Positions 1-7,267 of a stretch of DNA of 7,267 nucleotides are shown here, one piece after another. The notes beneath the pieces are model-generated. The model was not told where the DNA came from. It made no database searches and saw nothing but the letters and a program-made list of their open reading frames with translations. Position 1 is the stretch's first letter. Every line of letters starts with the position of its first letter. A program made the translations under genes and the position numbers. The stretch is from a virus (taxonomy: Duplodnaviria > Heunggongvirae > Uroviricota > Caudoviricetes), in IMG/VR virus record IMGVR_UViG_3300030438_000051. The stretch is one strand, 5' to 3'.

Positions 1-345
1 GTGTTTCAGGCGGTGCTGGGTGCGGCGCTGATTGCGGTGGCATGGTGGAACCCTGTTGGCTGGCTGGGGGCCGCGGCTGTATCGGGTCTGTATGCAGCAG
101 GGGCCAGTATGATCCTGGGTGGTGTGGCGCAGATGCTGGCACCGAAAGCCAGAACTCCCCGCACACAGACAACGGATAACGGTAAGCAGAACACCTATTT
201 CTCCTCACTGGATAACATGGTTGCCCAGGGCAATGTTTTGCCTGTTCTGTACGGTGAAATGCGTGTGGGGTCGCGGGTGGTTTCTCAGGAGATCAGCACG
301 GCAGACGAAGGGAATGGTGGTCAGGTTGTGGTGATTGGTCGCTGA
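1..345 (+). CDS. I: Tail assembly protein I, C-terminal portion (5' end lies outside the window; stop TGA at 343..345)
   Basis: Frame-1 ORF open from the window edge to TGA at 343..345. Its translation ends ...NGKQNTYFSSLDNMVAQGNVLPVLYGEMRVGSRVVSQEISTADEGNGGQVVVIGR, which I recognise as the C-terminus of lambda gpI. It sits about 60 nt upstream of a J homologue, as in lambda. Homology is from memory, not from a search. Confidence 0.85.
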   Translation: MFQAVLGAALIAVAWWNPVGWLGAAAVSGLYAAGASMILGGVAQMLAPKARTPRTQTTDNGKQNTYFSSLDNMVAQGNVLPVLYGEMRVGSRVVSQEISTADEGNGGQVVVIGR

Positions 346-405: not shown

Positions 406-3400
406 ATGGGTAAAGGCAGCAGTAAGGGGCATACCCCGCGCGAAGCGAAGGACAACCTGAAATCCACGCAGTTACTGAGTGTGATCGATGCCATCAGCGA
501 AGGGCCGATAGAAGGTCCGGTGGATGGATTAAAAAGCGTGCTGCTGAACAGTACGCCGGTGCTGGACAGTGAAGGGAATACCAACATCGCCGGTGTCACG
601 GTGGTGTTCCGGGCAGGTGAGCAGGAGCAGACACCGCCGGAGGGTTTTGAATCCTCCGGATCCGAGACGGTGCTGGGTACGGAAGTGAAATATGACACGC
701 CGATCACCCGGACCATCACGTCTGCAAACATCGACCGTCTGCGCTTTACCTTCGGTGTGCAGGCTCTGGTGGAAACCACTTCAAAGGGGGACCGGAATCC
801 GTCGGAAGTCCGCCTGCTGGTTCAGATACAGCGTAACGGTGGCTGGGTGACGGAAAAAGACATCACCATTAAGGGCAAAACCACCTCGCAGTATCTGGCC
901 TCGGTGGTGGTGGATAACCTGCCGCCGCGCCCGTTCAATATCCGGATGCGCAGGATGACACCGGACAGCACCACAGACCAGCTGCAGAACAAAACGCTCT
1001 GGTTGTCATACACCGAAATCATCGATGTGAAACAGTGCTACCCGAACACGGCACTGGTCGGTGTGCAGGTGGACTCGGAACAGTTCGGCAGCCAGCAGGT
1101 GAGCCGTAATTATCATCTTCGCGGGCGCATTCTGCAGGTGCCGTCGAACTATAACCCGCAGACGCGGCAATACAACGGTATCTGGGACGGGACGTTTAAA
1201 CCGGCATACAGCAACAACATGGCCTGGTGTCTGTGGGATATGCTGACCCACCCGCGCTACGGCATGGGGAAACGTCTTGGTGCGGCGGATGTGGACAAAT
1301 GGGCGCTGTATGTCATCGGCCAGTACTGCGANNNNNNNNNNNNNNNNNNNNNNNNNNNNNNNNNNNNNNNNNNNNNNNNNNNNNNNNNNNNNNNNNNNNN
1401 NNNNGTAAGGCGTGGGATGTTCTCAGTGATTTCTGCTCGGCGATGCGCTGTATGCCGGTATGGAACGGGCAGACGCTGACGTTCGTGCAGGACCGACCAT
1501 CAGATAAGGTGTGGACCTATAACCGCAGTAATGTGGTGATGCCGGATGATGGCGCACCGTTCCGCTACAGTTTCAGCGCCCTGAAGGACCGCCATAATGC
1601 CGTTGAGGTGAACTGGATTGACCCGGATAACGGCTGGGAGACGGCGACAGAGCTTGTGGAGGACACGCAGGCCATTGCCCGTTACGGTCGTAACGTCACG
1701 AAGATGGATGCCTTTGGCTGTACCAGCCGGGGGCAGGCACACCGCGCCGGGCTGTGGCTGATTAAAACGGAGCTGCTGGAAACGCAGACCGTGGATTTCA
1801 GCGTGGGCGCAGAAGGGCTTCGCCATGTACCGGGCGATGTTATTGAAATCTGCGATGATGACTATGCCGGTATCAGCACCGGTGGTCGCGTGCTGGCGGT
1901 GAACAGCCAGACCCGGACGCTGACGCTCGACCGTGAAATCACGCTGACATCTTCCGGCACCACGCTGATAAGCCTGGTTGACGGGCAGGGAAGTCCGGTC
2001 AGCGTGGAGGTTCAGTCCGTCACCGACGGCGTGAAGGTGAAAGTGAGCCGTGTTCCTGACGGCGTTGCTGAATACAGCGTGTGGGGGCTGAAGCTGCCGA
2101 CGCTGCGCCAGCGCCTGTTCCGCTGTGTGAGTATCCGTGAGAACGACGACGGTATGTATGCCATCACTGCAGTGCAGCATGTACCGGAGAAAGAGGCCAT
2201 CGTGGATAACGGGGCGCACTTTGACGGTAACCAGAGCGGCACGGTGAATGGTGTCACGCCGCCAGCAGTGCAGCATCTGACCGCAGAAGTCACCGCAGAC
2301 AGCGGGGAATACCAGGTGCTGGCGCGCTGGGATACGCCGAAGGTGGTGAAGGGCGTGAGCTTTATGCTTCGCCTGACCGTGGCAGCGGATGACGGCAGTG
2401 AGCGGCTGGTCAGCACGGCCCGGACGACGGAAACCACTTACCGCTTCAGGCAGCTGGCTCTGGGAAATTACAGTCTGACAGTCCGGGCGGTAAATGCGTG
2501 GGGGCAGCAGGGCGATCCGGCATCGGTATCGTTCCGGATTGCCGCACCGGCAGCGCCGTCTCGGATTGAGCTGACGCCGGGCTATTTTCAGATAACCGCC
2601 ACGCCGCATCTTGCGGTTTATGATCCGACGGTACAGTTTGAGTTCTGGTTCTCGGAAAAGCGGATTGCGGATATCAGGCAGGTTGAAACAAGCGCGCGTT
2701 ATCTTGGTACGGCGCTGTACTGGATAGCCGCCAGTATCAATATCAAACCGGGCCATGATTATTACTTTTATATCCGCAGTGTGAATACTGTTGGCAAATC
2801 GGCATTCGTGGAGGCTGTCGGTCGGGCGAGCGATGATGCGGAAGGTTACCTGGATTTTTTCAAAGGAGAGATAGGGAAAACACATCTGGCTCAGGAGCTG
2901 TGGACGCAGATTGATAACGGTCAGCTTGCGCCTGACCTGGCTGAAATCAGGACGTCCATTACGGATGTCAGCAATGAAATCACGCAGACTGTCAATAAGA
3001 AACTGGAAGACCAGAGTGCGGCAATCCAGCAGATACAGAAGGTTCAGGTTGATACAAATAATAACCTGAACAGCATGTGGGCTGTGAAGCTGCAGCAGAT
3101 GCAGGATGGACGCCTTTATATCGCGGGTATTGGTGCCGGTATTGAGAACACCCCCGACGGTATGCAGAGTCAGGTGCTGCTGGCGGCAGACAGGATTGCG
3201 ATGATTAATCCTGCGAATGGCAACACAAAGCCGATGTTTGTTGGTCAGGGCGATCAGATATTCATGAACGAAGTGTTCCTGAAACGCCTGACGGCTCCCA
3301 CCATTACCAGCGGCGGTAATCCTCCGGCATTTTCCCTGACACCGGACGGGCGGCTGACGGCGAAAAATGCCGATATTAGCGGTAACGTGAATGCGAACTC

Positions 3401-3887
3401 CGGGACGCTCAACAACGTCACGATTAACGAGAACTGCCGGGTTCTGGGAAAACTGTCCGCGAACCAGATTGAAGGCGATCTCGTTAAAACAGTGGGCAAA
3501 GCTTTCCCCCGGGACTCCCGTGCACCGGAGCGGTGGCCATCAGGGACTATTACCGTCAGGGTTTATGACGATCAGTCGTTTGACCGGCAAATTGTTATTC
3601 CAGCGGTGGCTTTCTGCGGTGCCAGACATGAGCGGGAGAATAGCGATACTTATTCGTCATGCCGCCTGATAGTGAAGAAAAACGGGGCTGAAATTTATAA
3701 CCGAACGGCTCTGGATAATACTCTGATTTACACGGGTGTTATTGATATGCCTGCAGGCAGTGGTGTAATGACACTGGAGTTTTCTGTATCAGCATGGTGG
3801 GTAAATGGTTGGTATCCCACAGCAAGTATCAGCGATTTGCTGGTTGTTGTGATGAAGAAAGCCACTGCAGGCATCAGTATCAGCTGA
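406..3887 (+). CDS. J: Host specificity protein J (tail tip / central tail fibre); one gene interrupted by an N-run at 1332..1404 that changes the apparent frame
   Basis: ATG at 406 is preceded by GGAG (394..397). The N-terminal translation [54 protein letters not shown]... and long downstream stretches (e.g. ...[34 protein letters not shown]..., ...[42 protein letters not shown]...) match my recollection of lambda gpJ. The coding frame is frame 1 for 406..1331 and frame 3 for 1405..3887, with stop TGA at 3885..3887. The two six-frame ORFs 406..1479 and 1227..3887 are the two halves of this one gene. Confidence 0.92.
1332..1404. other. Run of 73 ambiguous bases (N): assembly gap or masked segment inside J
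   Basis: Seen directly. The run length is not a multiple of 3 and the J reading frame differs on the two sides, so the run is a placeholder rather than the true sequence. Confidence 0.95.
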
Positions 3888-3954: not shown

Positions 3955-4554
3955 ATGCGTAAAGTTTGTGCAGCCATTTTGTCCGCAGCCATCTGTCTGG
4001 CCGTATCCGGTGCGCCTGCATGGGCGTCTGAGCAGCAGGCCACACTGAGCGCAGGGTATCTTCATGCCCGTACGAACGCTCCCGGCAGCGATAATCTGAA
4101 CGGGATTAACGTGAAATACCGTTATGAGTTTACGGACACGCTGGGGCTGATTACGTCATTCAGTTATGCCAACGCTGAAGATGAGCAAAAAACGCATTAC
4201 AGCGATACCCGCTGGCATGAAGATTCCGTGTGTAACCGCTGGTTCAGCGTGATGGTGGGGCCGTCTGTGCGCGTGAATGAATGGTTCAGCGCGTATGCGA
4301 TGGCGGGTATGGCTTACAGCCGTGTGTCGACTTTCTCCGGGGATTATCTCCGCGTAACTGACAACAAGGGGAAAACGCACGATGTGCTGACCGGAAGTGA
4401 TGACGGTCGCCACAGCAACACGTCTCTGGCGTGGGGGGCTGGCGTGCAGTTTAACCCGACCGAATCCGTGGCCATTGACCTTGCTTATGAAGGTTCCGGC
4501 AGTGGTGACTGGCGCACTGACGGTTTCATCGTGGGTGTCGGTTATAAATTCTGA
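3955..4554 (+). CDS. lom: Lom outer membrane protein (Ail/Lom/PagC/OmpX-family 8-strand beta-barrel; lysogenic-conversion moron)
   Basis: ATG at 3955 is preceded by GAGAGG (3944..3949). The N-terminus [24 protein letters not shown]|SEQQ looks like a signal peptide. The C-terminus ...[23 protein letters not shown], ending in an aromatic residue, matches my recollection of lambda Lom, as do the GINVKYRYE and [12 protein letters not shown] motifs. Its position between J and stf is the same as in lambda. Confidence 0.9.
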
Positions 4555-4607: not shown

Positions 4608-4618
4608 GTGGAGTGGAT

Positions 4619-6991
4619 ATGGCAGCAGTAAAAATCTCAGGTGTGCTGAAAGATGGTGCGGGAAAACCAATACAGAACTGCACTATTCAACTGAGGGCAA
4701 AGCGTAACAGCACCACGGTACTGGTGAACACGGTGGCTTCTGAAAATCCGGATGAAGCCGGACGTTACAGCATGGATGTTGAGTATGGCCAGTACAGCGT
4801 CACCCTGCTGGTTGAAGGTTTTCCGCCTTCACATGCCGGGACCATTACCGTCTATGAAGGCTCCAGACCAGGTACGCTGAATGATTTTCTCGGTGCCATG
4901 ACGGAAGATGATGTCATGCCGGAGGCATTGCGTCGTTTTGAGGCAATGGTGGAAGAAGTGGCACGCAACGCCGAAGCCGCCTCTCAGAGCGCAGCGGCGG
5001 CAAAGAAATCCGAAACTGCAGCGGCATCATCAAAGAACGCGGCGAAAACCTCAGAAACGAATGCAGCTAATAGTGCACAGGCGGCAGCGGCCTCACAGAC
5101 TGCATCGGCAAACTCCGCGACAGCAGCCAAAAAATCAGAAACCAACGCGAAAAATAGCGAGACAGCCGCAAAGACGAGCGAAACCAACGCAAAGTCCAGC
5201 CAGACGGCAGCGAAAACCAGCGAAACGAATGCCAAAGCCAGTGAAACTGCGGCAAAAAACAGCCAGGTTGCAGCAGCCCAAAGCGAGAGCGCGGCAGCCG
5301 GTTCTGCGACTTCAGCAGCCGGATCAGCAACTGCTGCGGCTAACAGCCAGAAAGCTGCGAAGACGAGTGAAACTAACGCAAAGTCCAGCCAGACGGCAGC
5401 GAAGACCAGCGAAACGAATGCCAAAGCCAGCGAAACTGCGGCGAAAAACAGCCAGGATGCAGCAGCCGAAAGCGAGAGTGTTGCAGCTGGTTCTGCAAGC
5501 GCGGCGGCTGCTTCTGCCACTGCATCAGCTAACAGTCAAAAAGCAGCAAAAACCAGTGAAACCAACGCAAAGACAAGCGAGACTGCGGCAGCTAACTCGG
5601 CGAAAGCATCCGCTGCAAGCCAGACAGCGGCTAAAGCAAGTGAAGATGCAGCCAGGGAGTACGCAAGCCAGGCAGCTGAGCCGTATAAACAAGTTTTGCA
5701 GCCACTGCCTGATGTGTGGATACCGTTTAATGACTCGATGGATATGATTGCAGGATTTGGCCCGGGATATAAAAAAATAACAGTGCGCGATGATGTGGTC
5801 ACTATACCATCCGACAAAATTGTCCCGTTTTCCCGCGCGAGTTCCGCGACCTATATCAATAAGTCCGGCGCTCTTACCATTGCAGAAATTAATGAGCCAC
5901 GTTTTGAAAAAGAAGGGCTGTTAATTGAAGGGCAGAGAACTAACTATCTAAAAAATTCTAATACACCGGAATTGTGGTACTACCACAGTTTACTGGCGAA
6001 AGAGTATGGGGTTGATAATTACGGTTTTAATTATGCAACCGTCACCGTGACAGACAGCCTTGTAGGCACAACCAGTAGTTATCAGATTCATAGTGTAACT
6101 GGAGAGAACAGGTTTTCTCTGTCCATCGGTGAAACCTGCACTTTTTCTGCCCGCTTTCGTGGAGTTAATTCACGTTGTCGCGTCCATATATCTCTTGTTA
6201 TTGGCGAAAATGTTAAAACATCTGTTGATGTATGTCTGGAGCCAGATACAGGTGAGGTTAAGGCGTACGGTAATAAGGCGCTGGTGACATTCAGAACGGA
6301 AAAACAGGGGGACTGGTGTTACTTTGAAACAACATATACCGCCGCCGAGAATATTGACGAAGTGGTATGCGTTTTTTTTATAACCAATCCTGAAGATGGT
6401 GGTTTTTCTTCTGATTCGTCATTAACAATGACTACGCCGCAAATTGAAAAAGGGTCATGCGCTTCATCGTTTATTATTTCCGGAAACACACCAACCACGC
6501 GCGCCAGTGATATGGTTATTTTTTCAACCAAAAATAACATAAGTTCTGTCCCTTTAAGCTGTCTTGTTGAAATACATAAACATTGGGACTCTACGCCAAA
6601 TCAGGCCCCACGAATTTTAACCACTATTGGCGTGGCGACTAATGATGAACAACTGGTATTGGCTTTCAGGACGCCTACAAGTCCGGATGTAGAACCTTTA
6701 CCTTATGTTCAGTTTGGAGTGAGATCTGCATATCTTAGTCCATCTGTGAAGGCCGGGCGCAAAATGATTGCTGGTTTTGTCTGTAATAGCTCGACTGAAT
6801 TTCGTTGCTGTTGTAATGGTTACCTGTCACCTGTTCAGACTTCGTCATGGAAGAATACCGGAGCTGCACATGAAATACGTATTGGGGGAACTTCTGCTGG
6901 AGGAGAACGTCACTTGTTTGGTCACGTTCGTAACCTGAGAATATGGCATAAAGAATTAACTGATGCGCAAATGGGGGAGAGTATTAAATGA
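4619..6991 (+). CDS. stf: Side tail fibre protein (Stf-like): lambda-Stf-like N-terminal domain, Ala/Ser/Thr-rich repeat shaft, divergent distal (probably receptor-binding) domain
   Basis: The preferred start is ATG 4619, with GGAG at 4610..4613 and a 5-nt spacer; the six-frame track begins at an in-frame GTG at 4613 that lies within the Shine-Dalgarno sequence. The N-terminus MAAVKISGVLKDGAGKPIQNCTIQLRAKRNSTTVLVNTVASENPDEAGRYSMDVEYGQYSVTLLVEGFPPSHAGTITVYEGSRPGTLNDFL matches my recollection of the lambda Stf (orf-401) N-terminus. The central part is repeats of the KTSETNAKASETAAKNSQ type (phage tail-fibre repeat style). Stop TGA at 6989..6991. It is intact as one 790-codon ORF. Confidence 0.88.
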   Translation: MAAVKISGVLKDGAGKPIQNCTIQLRAKRNSTTVLVNTVASENPDEAGRYSMDVEYGQYSVTLLVEGFPPSHAGTITVYEGSRPGTLNDFLGAMTEDDVMPEALRRFEAMVEEVARNAEAASQSAAAAKKSETAAASSKNAAKTSETNAANSAQAAAASQTASANSATAAKKSETNAKNSETAAKTSETNAKSSQTAAKTSETNAKASETAAKNSQVAAAQSESAAAGSATSAAGSATAAANSQKAAKTSETNAKSSQTAAKTSETNAKASETAAKNSQDAAAESESVAAGSASAAAASATASANSQKAAKTSETNAKTSETAAANSAKASAASQTAAKASEDAAREYASQAAEPYKQVLQPLPDVWIPFNDSMDMIAGFGPGYKKITVRDDVVTIPSDKIVPFSRASSATYINKSGALTIAEINEPRFEKEGLLIEGQRTNYLKNSNTPELWYYHSLLAKEYGVDNYGFNYATVTVTDSLVGTTSSYQIHSVTGENRFSLSIGETCTFSARFRGVNSRCRVHISLVIGENVKTSVDVCLEPDTGEVKAYGNKALVTFRTEKQGDWCYFETTYTAAENIDEVVCVFFITNPEDGGFSSDSSLTMTTPQIEKGSCASSFIISGNTPTTRASDMVIFSTKNNISSVPLSCLVEIHKHWDSTPNQAPRILTTIGVATNDEQLVLAFRTPTSPDVEPLPYVQFGVRSAYLSPSVKAGRKMIAGFVCNSSTEFRCCCNGYLSPVQTSSWKNTGAAHEIRIGGTSAGGERHLFGHVRNLRIWHKELTDAQMGESIK
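5168..5545 (+). repeat. In-frame tandem duplication, 2 x 189 bp (63 codons each), within the stf repeat shaft, with a partial third copy beginning at 5546
   Basis: Seen in sequence: 5168..5356 (gcaaagacgagcgaaaccaacgcaaagtccagccagacggcagcg...) and 5357..5545 (gcgaagacgagtgaaactaacgcaaagtccagccagacggcagcg...) align along their whole length with scattered substitutions. About 27 nt of a third unit follow. Both units contain a shorter periodicity of roughly 21 and 42 bp. Confidence 0.8.
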
Positions 6992-7267
6992 AAGATTTAA
7001 CACTCAAATTTGCAGACAGGGCCGACTTTTCGGCCTTTATGGATAGCACGGGCTATTATGATGACGAGTCGATGCAGGATGATATTCTTATTGACGTGAT
7101 AGGTAACGTGTACAAAGAAACCGGAGAACTGACTGAAGATGGCGAACCGGTGTGTGTTAAGGAAGACGGATATTTTGTAAACGTGCGCATCATTAATGAT
7201 GCAAAAAAATCGTCAATATTCGATGAATACGCGGTTGTTGTTGAACATCAACTTCGTGGCTGGATGT
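6988..7267 (+). CDS. Hypothetical acidic protein, 3'-truncated by the window edge; start overlaps the stf stop (ATGA); candidate tail-fibre accessory or chaperone
   Basis: ATG 6988..6990 overlaps the stf TGA (6989..6991) and is preceded by GGGGGAGAG (6973..6981). I translated the frame by hand and it stays open for 93 codons to the window end: MKDLTLKFADRADFSAFMDSTGYYDDESMQDDILIDVIGNVYKETGELTEDGEPVCVKEDGYFVNVRIINDAKKSSIFDEYAVVVEHQLRGWM. It is absent from the supplied ORF track. I see no resemblance to lambda Tfa. The function is an inference from position only. Confidence 0.5.
   Translation, partial: MKDLTLKFADRADFSAFMDSTGYYDDESMQDDILIDVIGNVYKETGELTEDGEPVCVKEDGYFVNVRIINDAKKSSIFDEYAVVVEHQLRGWM

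What the first reader, a model, noticed from the sequence alone, without database searches (positions are those of the whole stretch)
5690..6991. Stf carries a divergent, A+T-rich distal domain of about 430 residues ending in a LamG/ConA-lectin-like motif
The first ~120 residues and the repeat shaft look lambda-Stf-like, but from about PLPDVWIPFNDSMDMIAGFGPGYKKITVRDD onward the protein no longer resembles anything I recall from lambda Stf. The C-terminal stretch ...GGERHLFGHVRNLRIWHKELTDAQM (about 6914..6973) resembles the characteristic C-terminal strand of concanavalin-A-like lectin / Laminin_G_3 jellyroll domains (consensus-like ...D-E-V-R-I-Y-N-R-A-L-S-x-x-E-I). An upstream segment, ATYINKSGALTIAEINEPRFEKEGLLIEGQRTNYLKNS, also resembles a motif I associate with phage receptor-binding proteins. 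This is a plausible carbohydrate-binding receptor-recognition module swapped onto a lambda-type fibre scaffold, and its receptor cannot be predicted from the sequence.
Basis: partly seen in the sequence, partly recalled or inferred. Interest (0 to 1): 0.7.

Follow-up and report, generated by a model that had tools for sequence, protein, structure and literature searches.

The report
Lectin-tipped lambda-type side tail fibre
This prophage side tail fibre keeps phage lambda's attachment end and shaft but carries a swapped-in tip made of two sugar-binding-type domains; the tip is real and probably binds host surface sugars, but it is common among coliphages and already catalogued.

Summary
The stf gene (4613-6991, 792 aa) has a lambda-like N-terminal anchor and Ala-rich repeat shaft. 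From residue 360 (nt 5690) it becomes an A+T-rich region (GC 0.43 against 0.55-0.56 for J and lom) with no similarity to the lambda Stf tip.

The distal region has three parts:
- **Adaptor** (aa 360-436): conserved across the family.
- **D1** (aa 437-631): a beta-sandwich that passes the NCBIfam "GTA head spike fiber" model (67 bits, cutoff 36).

The module is not rare. PHROG 1419 matches the protein end to end, and 93 of 5,426 complete E. coli genomes carry most of it, the listed ones at about 99% identity. Related copies (30-52% identity) sit on lambda-like, T1-like, T5-like and rV5-like fibres, followed in every locus examined by a 93-aa acidic ORF.

The domain cores are hypervariable between conserved linkers. 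The most likely function is non-enzymatic glycan binding for primary adsorption. The receptor is unknown, and I found no characterised member. Interest is modest.

The parts
4613..6991 (+). stf, side tail fibre gene, 792 aa plus stop
   Evidence: ORF list. PHROG 1419 'tail protein' matches end to end: 1250 bits, aa 4-791 against profile 1-793/793. 99.95% identical to the annotated prophage gene in E. coli CP145718, which lies next to bioA/ybhB.
4625..5014 (+). N-terminal anchor domain (aa 5-134), lambda Stf type
   Evidence: Pfam PF08400 phage_tail_N, 222.3 bits against cutoff 26.6. Aligns with lambda orf-401 aa 2-121.
5015..5689 (+). Ala/Ser/Thr/Lys-rich repeat shaft (aa 135-359) with a 189-nt tandem repeat
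   Evidence: Tandem Repeats Finder: period 189, 2.3 copies, 5156-5583, with 42- and 21-nt sub-repeats. Aligns with the lambda Stf shaft. Also shared at 55-65% identity with the LtfA-like protein of T5-like phage EC104.
5690..5920 (+). Conserved adaptor/neck (aa 360-436), start of the swapped A+T-rich cassette
   Evidence: The conserved block aa 362-451 (the adaptor plus the first residues of D1) has mean pairwise identity 56% among 44 diverse relatives, against about 20% for the domain cores. Many of the 1,234 representative clusters match only this stretch, at 45-60% identity. AlphaFold monomer confidence is below 50 here. A trimeric neck would explain that, but this was not tested.
5921..6505 (+). 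D1: GTA-head-spike-fibre-type beta-sandwich (aa 437-631), CBM4/CenC-like
   Evidence: NCBIfam NF048003, 67.1 bits against cutoff 36; 44 of 44 relatives match it. A D1 profile against PDB sequences gives RcGTA Rcc01080 E 3e-33, E217 gp45 and Pa193 gp46 E 3e-18, Sf11 gp17 E 4e-17, CBM4 laminarinase 1gui E 0.004 and a CenC-type CBM E 0.046. Model pLDDT is 80-93. The core is hypervariable at about 20% identity.
6515..6988 (+). D2: LamG/pentraxin/CBM40-type jellyroll (aa 635-792); the Pfam Laminin_G_3 stretch lies at nt 6782-6970
6988..7266 (+). 93-aa acidic ORF (pI 4.2) overlapping the stf stop codon (ATGA); conserved partner of the module. Its stop codon lies just past the end of the window.
   Evidence: Sequence. 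PHROG 1361, unknown function, 157 bits. No Pfam, NCBIfam or PDB match. tblastn finds it in 181 phage records; in most rows shown it overlaps a tail-fibre gene, and it follows that gene directly in the five loci inspected.

Best explanation
This is a mosaic side tail fibre. A lambda-type N-terminal anchor and Ala-rich repeat shaft carry a horizontally exchanged distal cassette. The cassette is a conserved adaptor followed by two tandem, non-enzymatic ConA-like beta-jellyroll domains: D1 of the CBM4/CenC-like 'GTA head spike fibre' type, and D2 of the LamG/pentraxin/CBM40 type. It is co-inherited with a small acidic 93-aa protein in place of the lambda tip and Tfa chaperone.

The likely working is as follows. 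The fibre tip binds a surface polysaccharide of the host (O-antigen, capsule or LPS core) reversibly, through the variable faces of D1 and/or D2. This holds the virion at the cell surface so that gpJ can reach its outer-membrane receptor. Specificity changes when the hypervariable domain cores are swapped by recombination in the conserved adaptor, the inter-domain hinge and the C-terminal tail.

Shown here: the architecture, the folds and homologies, the distribution, and the mosaic pattern.
Inferred: glycan binding, the role in adsorption, the trimeric state, and the role of the small ORF.
For: Architecture and folds.

A homologue with tested function: D1 is homologous (profile E 3e-33) to the RcGTA head spike fibre. 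That protein, tagged with a fluorescent protein, binds Rhodobacter cells better when capsule is present (PMC10218006).

Fold neighbours: the closest matches to D2 are sugar-binding modules (CBM40 with sialyllactose, pentraxins, an arabinanase CBM). D1 remotely matches CBM4 and CenC-type modules.

No enzyme signature: no hydrolase or lyase family passes threshold. The only such hit is kappa-carrageenase at E 0.03-0.06.

[quoted passage not shown] The literature treats these fibres as O-antigen or other glycan binders (PMC8594841; PMC4728585).

Variability: domain cores are about 20% identical across the family, while adaptor, hinge and C-tail are 51-56%. In phage PhiR46_1 the Stf is 92-100% identical to this one up to aa 360 and 88% in the last 32 aa, but only 12-28% in the D1 and D2 cores.

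Foreign origin: low GC from nt 5690 onward. A tfa remnant pseudogene lies downstream in the near-identical prophage.
Against: No member of this module family has an experimentally defined receptor that I could find.

LamG and pentraxin folds also bind proteins, for example neurexin, so the fold does not prove sugar binding.

Pfam Laminin_G_3 is below its gathering score in this copy.

The adaptor was modelled with low confidence, and the oligomeric state was not tested.

Several related loci encode a second fibre protein just downstream. Part of the module could therefore serve as a docking site rather than as the receptor binder.
Confidence: 0.65

Rival explanations
1. The module is mainly a branching platform. 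D1 and/or D2, perhaps with the 93-aa protein as adaptor, dock the N-terminus of a second fibre protein encoded downstream, giving a branched fibre as in DT57C LtfA/LtfB. The second protein would then be the true receptor binder.
For: In the near-identical prophage, stf is followed by the 93-aa ORF, a 234-aa fibre protein with a Peptidase_S74 chaperone domain and a conserved 32-aa N-terminus, and then a 97-aa ORF. T5-like EC104 and VSe12 have the same order, with further 'tail fiber' genes after the small ORF. Branched LTFs are documented genetically in DT57C (PMC4728585).
Against: Lambda_4B5 has the module and the small ORF but no second fibre gene. A docking surface should be conserved, yet both domain cores are hypervariable. 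In DT57C itself LtfA both docks LtfB and binds its own O-antigen, so docking would not exclude receptor binding.
Confidence: 0.15
2. The tip binds a protein receptor, an outer-membrane protein, as proposed for Ur-lambda Stf and OmpC, rather than a glycan.
Against: The only homologue with binding data binds better to capsulated cells. The closest fold matches are CBMs. The same module sits on lateral fibres generally assigned to glycan recognition.
Confidence: 0.1
3. The distal region is a glycan-degrading enzyme, a GH16-like depolymerase, rather than a lectin.
Against: The score is 12.5-13.5 bits against a cutoff of 350. No GH16-type catalytic motif is conserved; the region in question is among the most variable in the family. 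The best fold matches are non-catalytic modules.
Confidence: 0.03
4. The gene is an inert relic of a defective prophage with no current function.
For: A tfa remnant pseudogene lies downstream in the near-identical prophage. Many E. coli prophages are defective.
Against: The 792-codon ORF is intact. 93 complete genomes carry at least 80% of the distal region, and the 20 best listed are 99.3-99.9% identical. The neighbouring tail genes are annotated as intact. Isolated, plaque-forming phages of at least four lineages carry full-length homologues.
Confidence: 0.05

Closest known systems
Lateral/side tail fibre proteins of T5-like (EC104, JLBYU40, VSe12), T1-like (KarlBarth, rolling), Jouyvirus/lambda-like (Lambda_4B5, 1H12, PhiR46_1) and rV5-like (JeffSchatz, EdH4) coliphages: PHROG 1419 and 5939
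   Same: The whole distal module (adaptor, D1, D2) is shared at 30-52% identity over about 99% of its length, and the 93-aa ORF follows it directly in every locus examined. With EC104 the Ala-rich shaft is shared too.
   Different: The N-terminal anchors differ by phage lineage: lambda-type PF08400 here, T5 LtfA-type, P2 collar-type and TSP1/Gp66-type elsewhere. The D1 and D2 cores are only about 20% identical. I found no defined receptor for any member.
Phage lambda (Ur-lambda) Stf with Tfa
   Same: The N-terminal anchor domain and repeat shaft are shared (173/285 identities). The genomic position is the same: J, lom, stf.
   Different: The distal 433 aa have no similarity to the lambda Stf C-terminal half, orf-314. 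The next gene is a 93-aa ORF with no Pfam, NCBIfam or PDB match, where lambda has tfa.
Rhodobacter capsulatus GTA head spike fibre Rcc01080 (NCBIfam NF048003)
   Same: D1 is homologous (67 bits with the family model; profile E 3e-33 over Rcc01080 aa 80-273). It includes the ending motif Q-x-E...ASS-x-I-x-T...TRA-x-D. Rcc01080 binding to cells increases with capsule (PMC10218006).
   Different: Rcc01080 decorates capsid vertices and is anchored by its N-terminal 10 residues to a pentameric base; it is not a tail fibre. Only those residues are resolved in 6TB9.
E217 gp45 / Pa193 gp46 baseplate wedge proteins, and the C-terminal appendage of the Sf11 distal tail protein gp17
   Different: There the domain is a peripheral decoration of a baseplate or tail-tip protein, not a fibre tip. 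In Sf11 that part was not modelled and is called 'of unknown function' (PMC12724387).
LamG / pentraxin / CBM40 ConA-like jellyrolls (Pfam clan of Laminin_G_3)
   Different: Sequence identity is 9-16%. The Pfam score is below threshold in this copy. Ligand- and metal-binding residues were not examined.

Membership tests
Lambda-type side tail fibre (Stf), N-terminal anchor | PF08400 phage_tail_N domain at the N-terminus above the gathering score | tested here: met
   222.3 bits against 26.6, aa 5-134. Aligns with lambda orf-401.
Lambda-type side tail fibre (Stf), tip | C-terminal tip homologous to the lambda Stf C-terminal half (orf-314), followed by the tfa chaperone gene | tested here: not met
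   No alignment with orf-314, best E 1.8. The next gene is a 93-aa ORF that matches PHROG 1361 (unknown function) and nothing in Pfam, NCBIfam or the PDB. It was not compared directly with lambda Tfa.
NCBIfam NF048003 GTA_spike_fiber domain | Score above the curated cutoff over the full profile | tested here: met
   67.1 bits against 36, profile positions 1-181 of 182, aa 437-631. 44 of 44 relatives match. Reciprocal profile hit to Rcc01080, E 3e-33.
Pfam PF13385 Laminin_G_3 (ConA-like lectin/glucanase superfamily) | Sequence score above the gathering threshold | tested here: not met
   20.7 bits against 27.6, E 4.8e-4, covering only profile positions 88-149. 27 of 44 relatives match at E <= 1e-3, best 1.9e-11.
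LamG/pentraxin-type ConA-like jellyroll (fold level) | Beta-jellyroll sandwich that superposes on LamG, pentraxin and CBM40 structures | tested here: met
LamG/pentraxin/CBM lectins | Demonstrated carbohydrate (or Ca2+-dependent ligand) binding site | not testable with these tools
   Needs binding assays or a ligand-bound structure. Binding residues were not mapped.
T5 pb1 / DT57C LtfA-LtfB type fibres | C-terminal Peptidase_S74 autocleaving intramolecular chaperone | tested here: not met
   No PF13884 hit in Stf at E <= 1. The domain is present instead in the separate 234-aa downstream protein of the near-identical prophage.
PHROG 1419 (phage tail protein) | Full-length match to the family profile | tested here: met
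   1250.1 bits, aa 4-791 against profile 1-793 of 793.
Tailspike/depolymerase (GH16-like) | Family score above cutoff and a conserved catalytic motif | tested here: not met
   Kappa-carrageenase model 12.5-13.5 bits against cutoff 350. The region is highly variable in the family.

The most novel reading that the evidence does not exclude
The double-jellyroll tip and its 93-aa acidic partner could form a Tfa-independent, self-contained two-gene receptor-binding cassette. Coliphages of at least five lineages (lambda-like, T1-like, Dhillonvirus, T5-like, rV5-like) would exchange it by recombination at three conserved linkers: adaptor, hinge and C-tail. The small protein would be a previously undescribed kind of fibre chaperone, tip cap or branching adaptor that recognises the conserved framework rather than the variable cores.
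Probability: 0.3. Interest if true: 0.5.

Novelty: new member of a known kind. Interest (0 to 1): 0.3.

Why it matters
Side and lateral fibre tips decide which O-antigen or capsule types a siphophage can get past. This module is one of the commoner tips among coliphage fibres, yet I found no member with a defined receptor.

Three features make it practically useful. It has a lectin-type, non-enzymatic double-jellyroll architecture. It has conserved junctions: EPY/PLPDVW at the 5' end, the PQIE...TRASD hinge, and the GHVRNLRIWH tail. It also has a small dedicated partner gene. Together these would allow rational fibre swapping in lambda-based delivery particles and prediction of host range.

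The analysis also suggests a function for two appendages currently labelled as unknown or only proposed: the Sf11 distal-tail-protein C-terminal domain and the GTA head spike fibre domain.

As a discovery it is incremental. Mosaic fibres are expected, and this family is already in PHROGs, NCBIfam and RefSeq.

Tried and rejected
1. **A characterised relative with a known receptor.**
   - The lateral fibre of BASEL phage JakobBernoulli, thought to use O16 O-antigen, is not homologous.
   - DT57C LtfA and LtfB (O22/O87/O81) use S74-type tips, a different kind.
   - The T5-like Salmonella phage phi37 has Ltf host-range mutations at residues 468-556, which could fall in D1. No sequence or accession is given in the paper, and NCBI's 'Salmonella phage 37' is an unrelated Chivirus. 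The lead could not be tested.
   - PMC9469705 is not held.
   - The Eligo lambda-STF chimera papers do not describe this module.

2. **Experimental coordinates for D1 from the sequence hits.** 6TB9 resolves only residues 2-10 of Rcc01080. 9OCC models only residues 3-165 of Sf11 gp17. Only E217 gp45 and Pa193 gp46 have the domain resolved.

4. **Near-identity DNA search in the phage collection.** It found no full-length copy, only the adaptor segment in two T5-like phages at 83%. Close copies are in E. coli chromosomes instead.

5. **The 93-aa ORF.** No Pfam, NCBIfam or PDB match.

6. **Depolymerase reading.** Rejected on score and lack of conservation.
Full report
**Context.** The window is a lambdoid prophage tail region. 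It holds the 3' end of gpI (1-345), gpJ (406-3887, interrupted by a run of N), lom (3955-4554; Ail_Lom 412.7 bits) and a 792-codon stf (4613-6991). A small ORF then starts at 6988 inside the stf stop codon (ATGA). From nt 1405 to the end, the window is 99.95% identical to a prophage of E. coli S1-CAM-01-C (CP145718). That prophage lies next to bioA/ybhB, and its gene is annotated 'prophage tail fiber N-terminal domain-containing protein', WP_094314108.1.

**Observation check.** GC falls from 0.55-0.56 in J, lom and the stf shaft to 0.431 (GC3 0.365) in 5690-6988, and stays low in the next ORF at 0.419. The N-terminal part of Stf passes PF08400 (222 bits), and with the shaft it aligns with lambda orf-401 (173/285 identities, E 1e-78). 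Nothing in the distal 433 aa aligns with lambda orf-314, the Stf C-terminal half.

**Anatomy of the distal region.** It is three parts, not one domain.

1. *Adaptor, aa 360-436.* This holds PLPDVWIPFNDS and ATYINKSG...EPRFEKEGLLIEGQRTN. It is the best-conserved stretch of the family: the block aa 362-451, which runs into the first residues of D1, has 56% mean pairwise identity among 44 diverse relatives. In an exhaustive search of 1.84 billion cluster representatives, many of the 1,234 hits match only this stretch, at 45-60% identity, in front of other sequence. AlphaFold as a monomer could not model it (pLDDT below 50). An inter-chain trimeric neck would explain that, but I could not test it.

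**Distribution.**
- PHROG 1419 matches the whole protein end to end at 1250 bits.
- Of 5,426 complete E. coli genomes, 619 contain some match to the distal DNA and 93 contain at least 80% of it; the listed ones are 99.3-99.9% identical.
- At protein level, 218 phage records carry it, 196 of them nearly full length at 30-52% identity. They include T5-like (EC104, L6jm, JLBYU40, VSe12), lambda-like (Lambda_4B5, 1H12, the PhiR phages), T1-like (KarlBarth, rolling, tunus), Dhillonvirus and rV5-like phages (JeffSchatz, EdH4).
- The N-terminal anchors differ among carriers: lambda-type, P2 collar-type, Phage_fiber_2 and TSP1/Gp66-type.
- Predicted structures of many uncultured marine and other phage proteins show the same two-jellyroll arrangement.

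**A conserved partner gene.** The 93-aa ORF at 6988-7266 is acidic (pI 4.2) and belongs to PHROG 1361, of unknown function. It has no Pfam, NCBIfam or PDB match. It is found in 181 phage records, and in the loci I inspected it directly follows, usually overlapping, the fibre gene that carries this module, across all these lineages. It takes the place of tfa. In the near-identical prophage a tfa remnant pseudogene lies further downstream, after a 234-aa fibre protein with an S74 chaperone domain and a 97-aa ORF. That marks the right-hand scar of the replacement.

**Mosaic pattern.** Across the family the D1 and D2 cores are about 20% identical. The adaptor, the hinge (PQIE.G..ASSFI...TRASD, aa 610-634) and the C-terminal tail (aa 755-792) are 51-56% identical. 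The clearest case is phage PhiR46_1. Its Stf is 92-100% identical to this one over aa 1-360, 75-82% in the adaptor, 12-28% in the D1 core, 62% at the hinge, 20-28% in the D2 core and 88% in the last 32 residues. Its small ORF is 94% identical. The cores have therefore been exchanged between conserved flanks, and the small ORF travels with the flanks rather than with a particular core. T5-like EC104 shares the shaft (55-65%) and the module but not the N-terminal anchor.

**Mechanism.** The best-supported reading is a non-enzymatic, lectin-type tip that binds a host surface polysaccharide for reversible primary adsorption. Specificity would be reset by swapping cores.
- For it: both domains have carbohydrate-binding-module-type folds. 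The only homologue with binding data, the GTA head spike fibre, binds cells better when capsule is present (PMC10218006). The module occupies the distal part of lateral fibres that the literature assigns to O-antigen or other glycan recognition (PMC8594841, PMC4728585). No enzyme family scores. The variability pattern fits a receptor-binding surface.
- Against it: there is no direct binding evidence for any member. LamG-type folds can bind proteins. Downstream second fibre genes in several loci allow a docking role.

The architecture and homologies are shown. Glycan binding, trimeric state and the small ORF's role are inferred.

**Rivals.**
- A branching platform for a second fibre is plausible in part. 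However, Lambda_4B5 has the module without a second fibre, and hypervariable cores do not suit a docking surface.
- A protein receptor is possible from the fold alone.
- A GH16-like depolymerase is rejected: 13 bits against a cutoff of 350, and no conserved motif.
- An inert relic is unlikely, given intact and near-identical copies and plaque-forming relatives.

**Comparison and novelty.** The gene works like the lateral fibre tips of T5-like and T1-like phages, and it belongs to that module family (PHROG 1419, NF048003). It belongs to the lambda Stf family only through its anchor and shaft. It fails the lambda-tip/Tfa test and the S74 test. Near-identical proteins are already annotated in RefSeq, so this is a new (uncharacterised) member of a known kind. 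The literature I could search does not describe its domain architecture, its conserved partner ORF or the linker-bounded core swapping.

**Verdict.** It is common and catalogued, and the receptor remains unknown. Interest is 0.3.

Noticed in passing
window 1332-1404: A run of 73 N interrupts gpJ and splits it into two apparent reading frames (406-1479 and 1227-3887). The matching stretch in the near-identical prophage CP145718 is 71 nt (L001 4645-4715), so the masked run is 2 nt too long and the frame break is an artefact.
   Followed up: yes
window 6988-7266: A 93-aa acidic ORF (pI 4.2, PHROG 1361, no Pfam, NCBIfam or PDB match) overlaps the stf stop codon. It is conserved directly after fibre genes carrying this module in lambda-like, T1-like, Dhillonvirus, T5-like and rV5-like phages (181 phage records). 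It stays 94% identical in PhiR46_1 even though that phage's D1 and D2 cores are only 12-28% identical to the ones here.
   Followed up: partly
window 5119-5583: The stf shaft contains a 189-nt (63-aa) tandem repeat in 2.3 copies, with 42- and 21-nt sub-repeats. Close alleles in the protein database are 720-734 aa rather than 792, which suggests copy-number variation in shaft length. The same region has strong AT skew (0.48-0.67) and long spurious ORFs in other frames and on the opposite strand.
   Followed up: partly
L001 10590-11737 (CP145718, downstream of the window): After the 93-aa ORF come a 234-aa fibre protein with a Peptidase_S74 intramolecular chaperone domain and a conserved 32-aa N-terminus, then a 97-aa ORF (PHROG 1443), then a tfa pseudogene lacking its N-terminus. 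This suggests a branched fibre and marks the right-hand scar of the cassette replacement.
   Followed up: partly
PDB 9OCC chain C (Shigella phage Sf11 distal tail protein gp17, residues 222-402): The large C-terminal appendage of Sf11 gp17 was left unmodelled and described as of unknown function. It is homologous to D1, the GTA head spike fibre domain (profile E 4e-17). This suggests it is a CBM-like glycan-binding decoration.
   Followed up: partly
L003 (Lambda_4B5, LR595863) 1798-3144 and 5942-9266: In this lambda-like phage an IS4 transposase sits between J and stf where lom would be. A sitABCD manganese/iron transporter operon lies just after the fibre cassette as cargo.
   Followed up: no
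window 1-99: The blastn alignment to the otherwise 99.4-99.9% identical prophage CP145718 begins only at window position 100. The 5' end of the gpI segment may therefore be a different allele or a recombination boundary.
   Followed up: no
window 3955-4554: An intact lom (Ail/Lom outer-membrane beta-barrel, 412.7 bits) lies between J and stf, as in lambda.
   Followed up: yes
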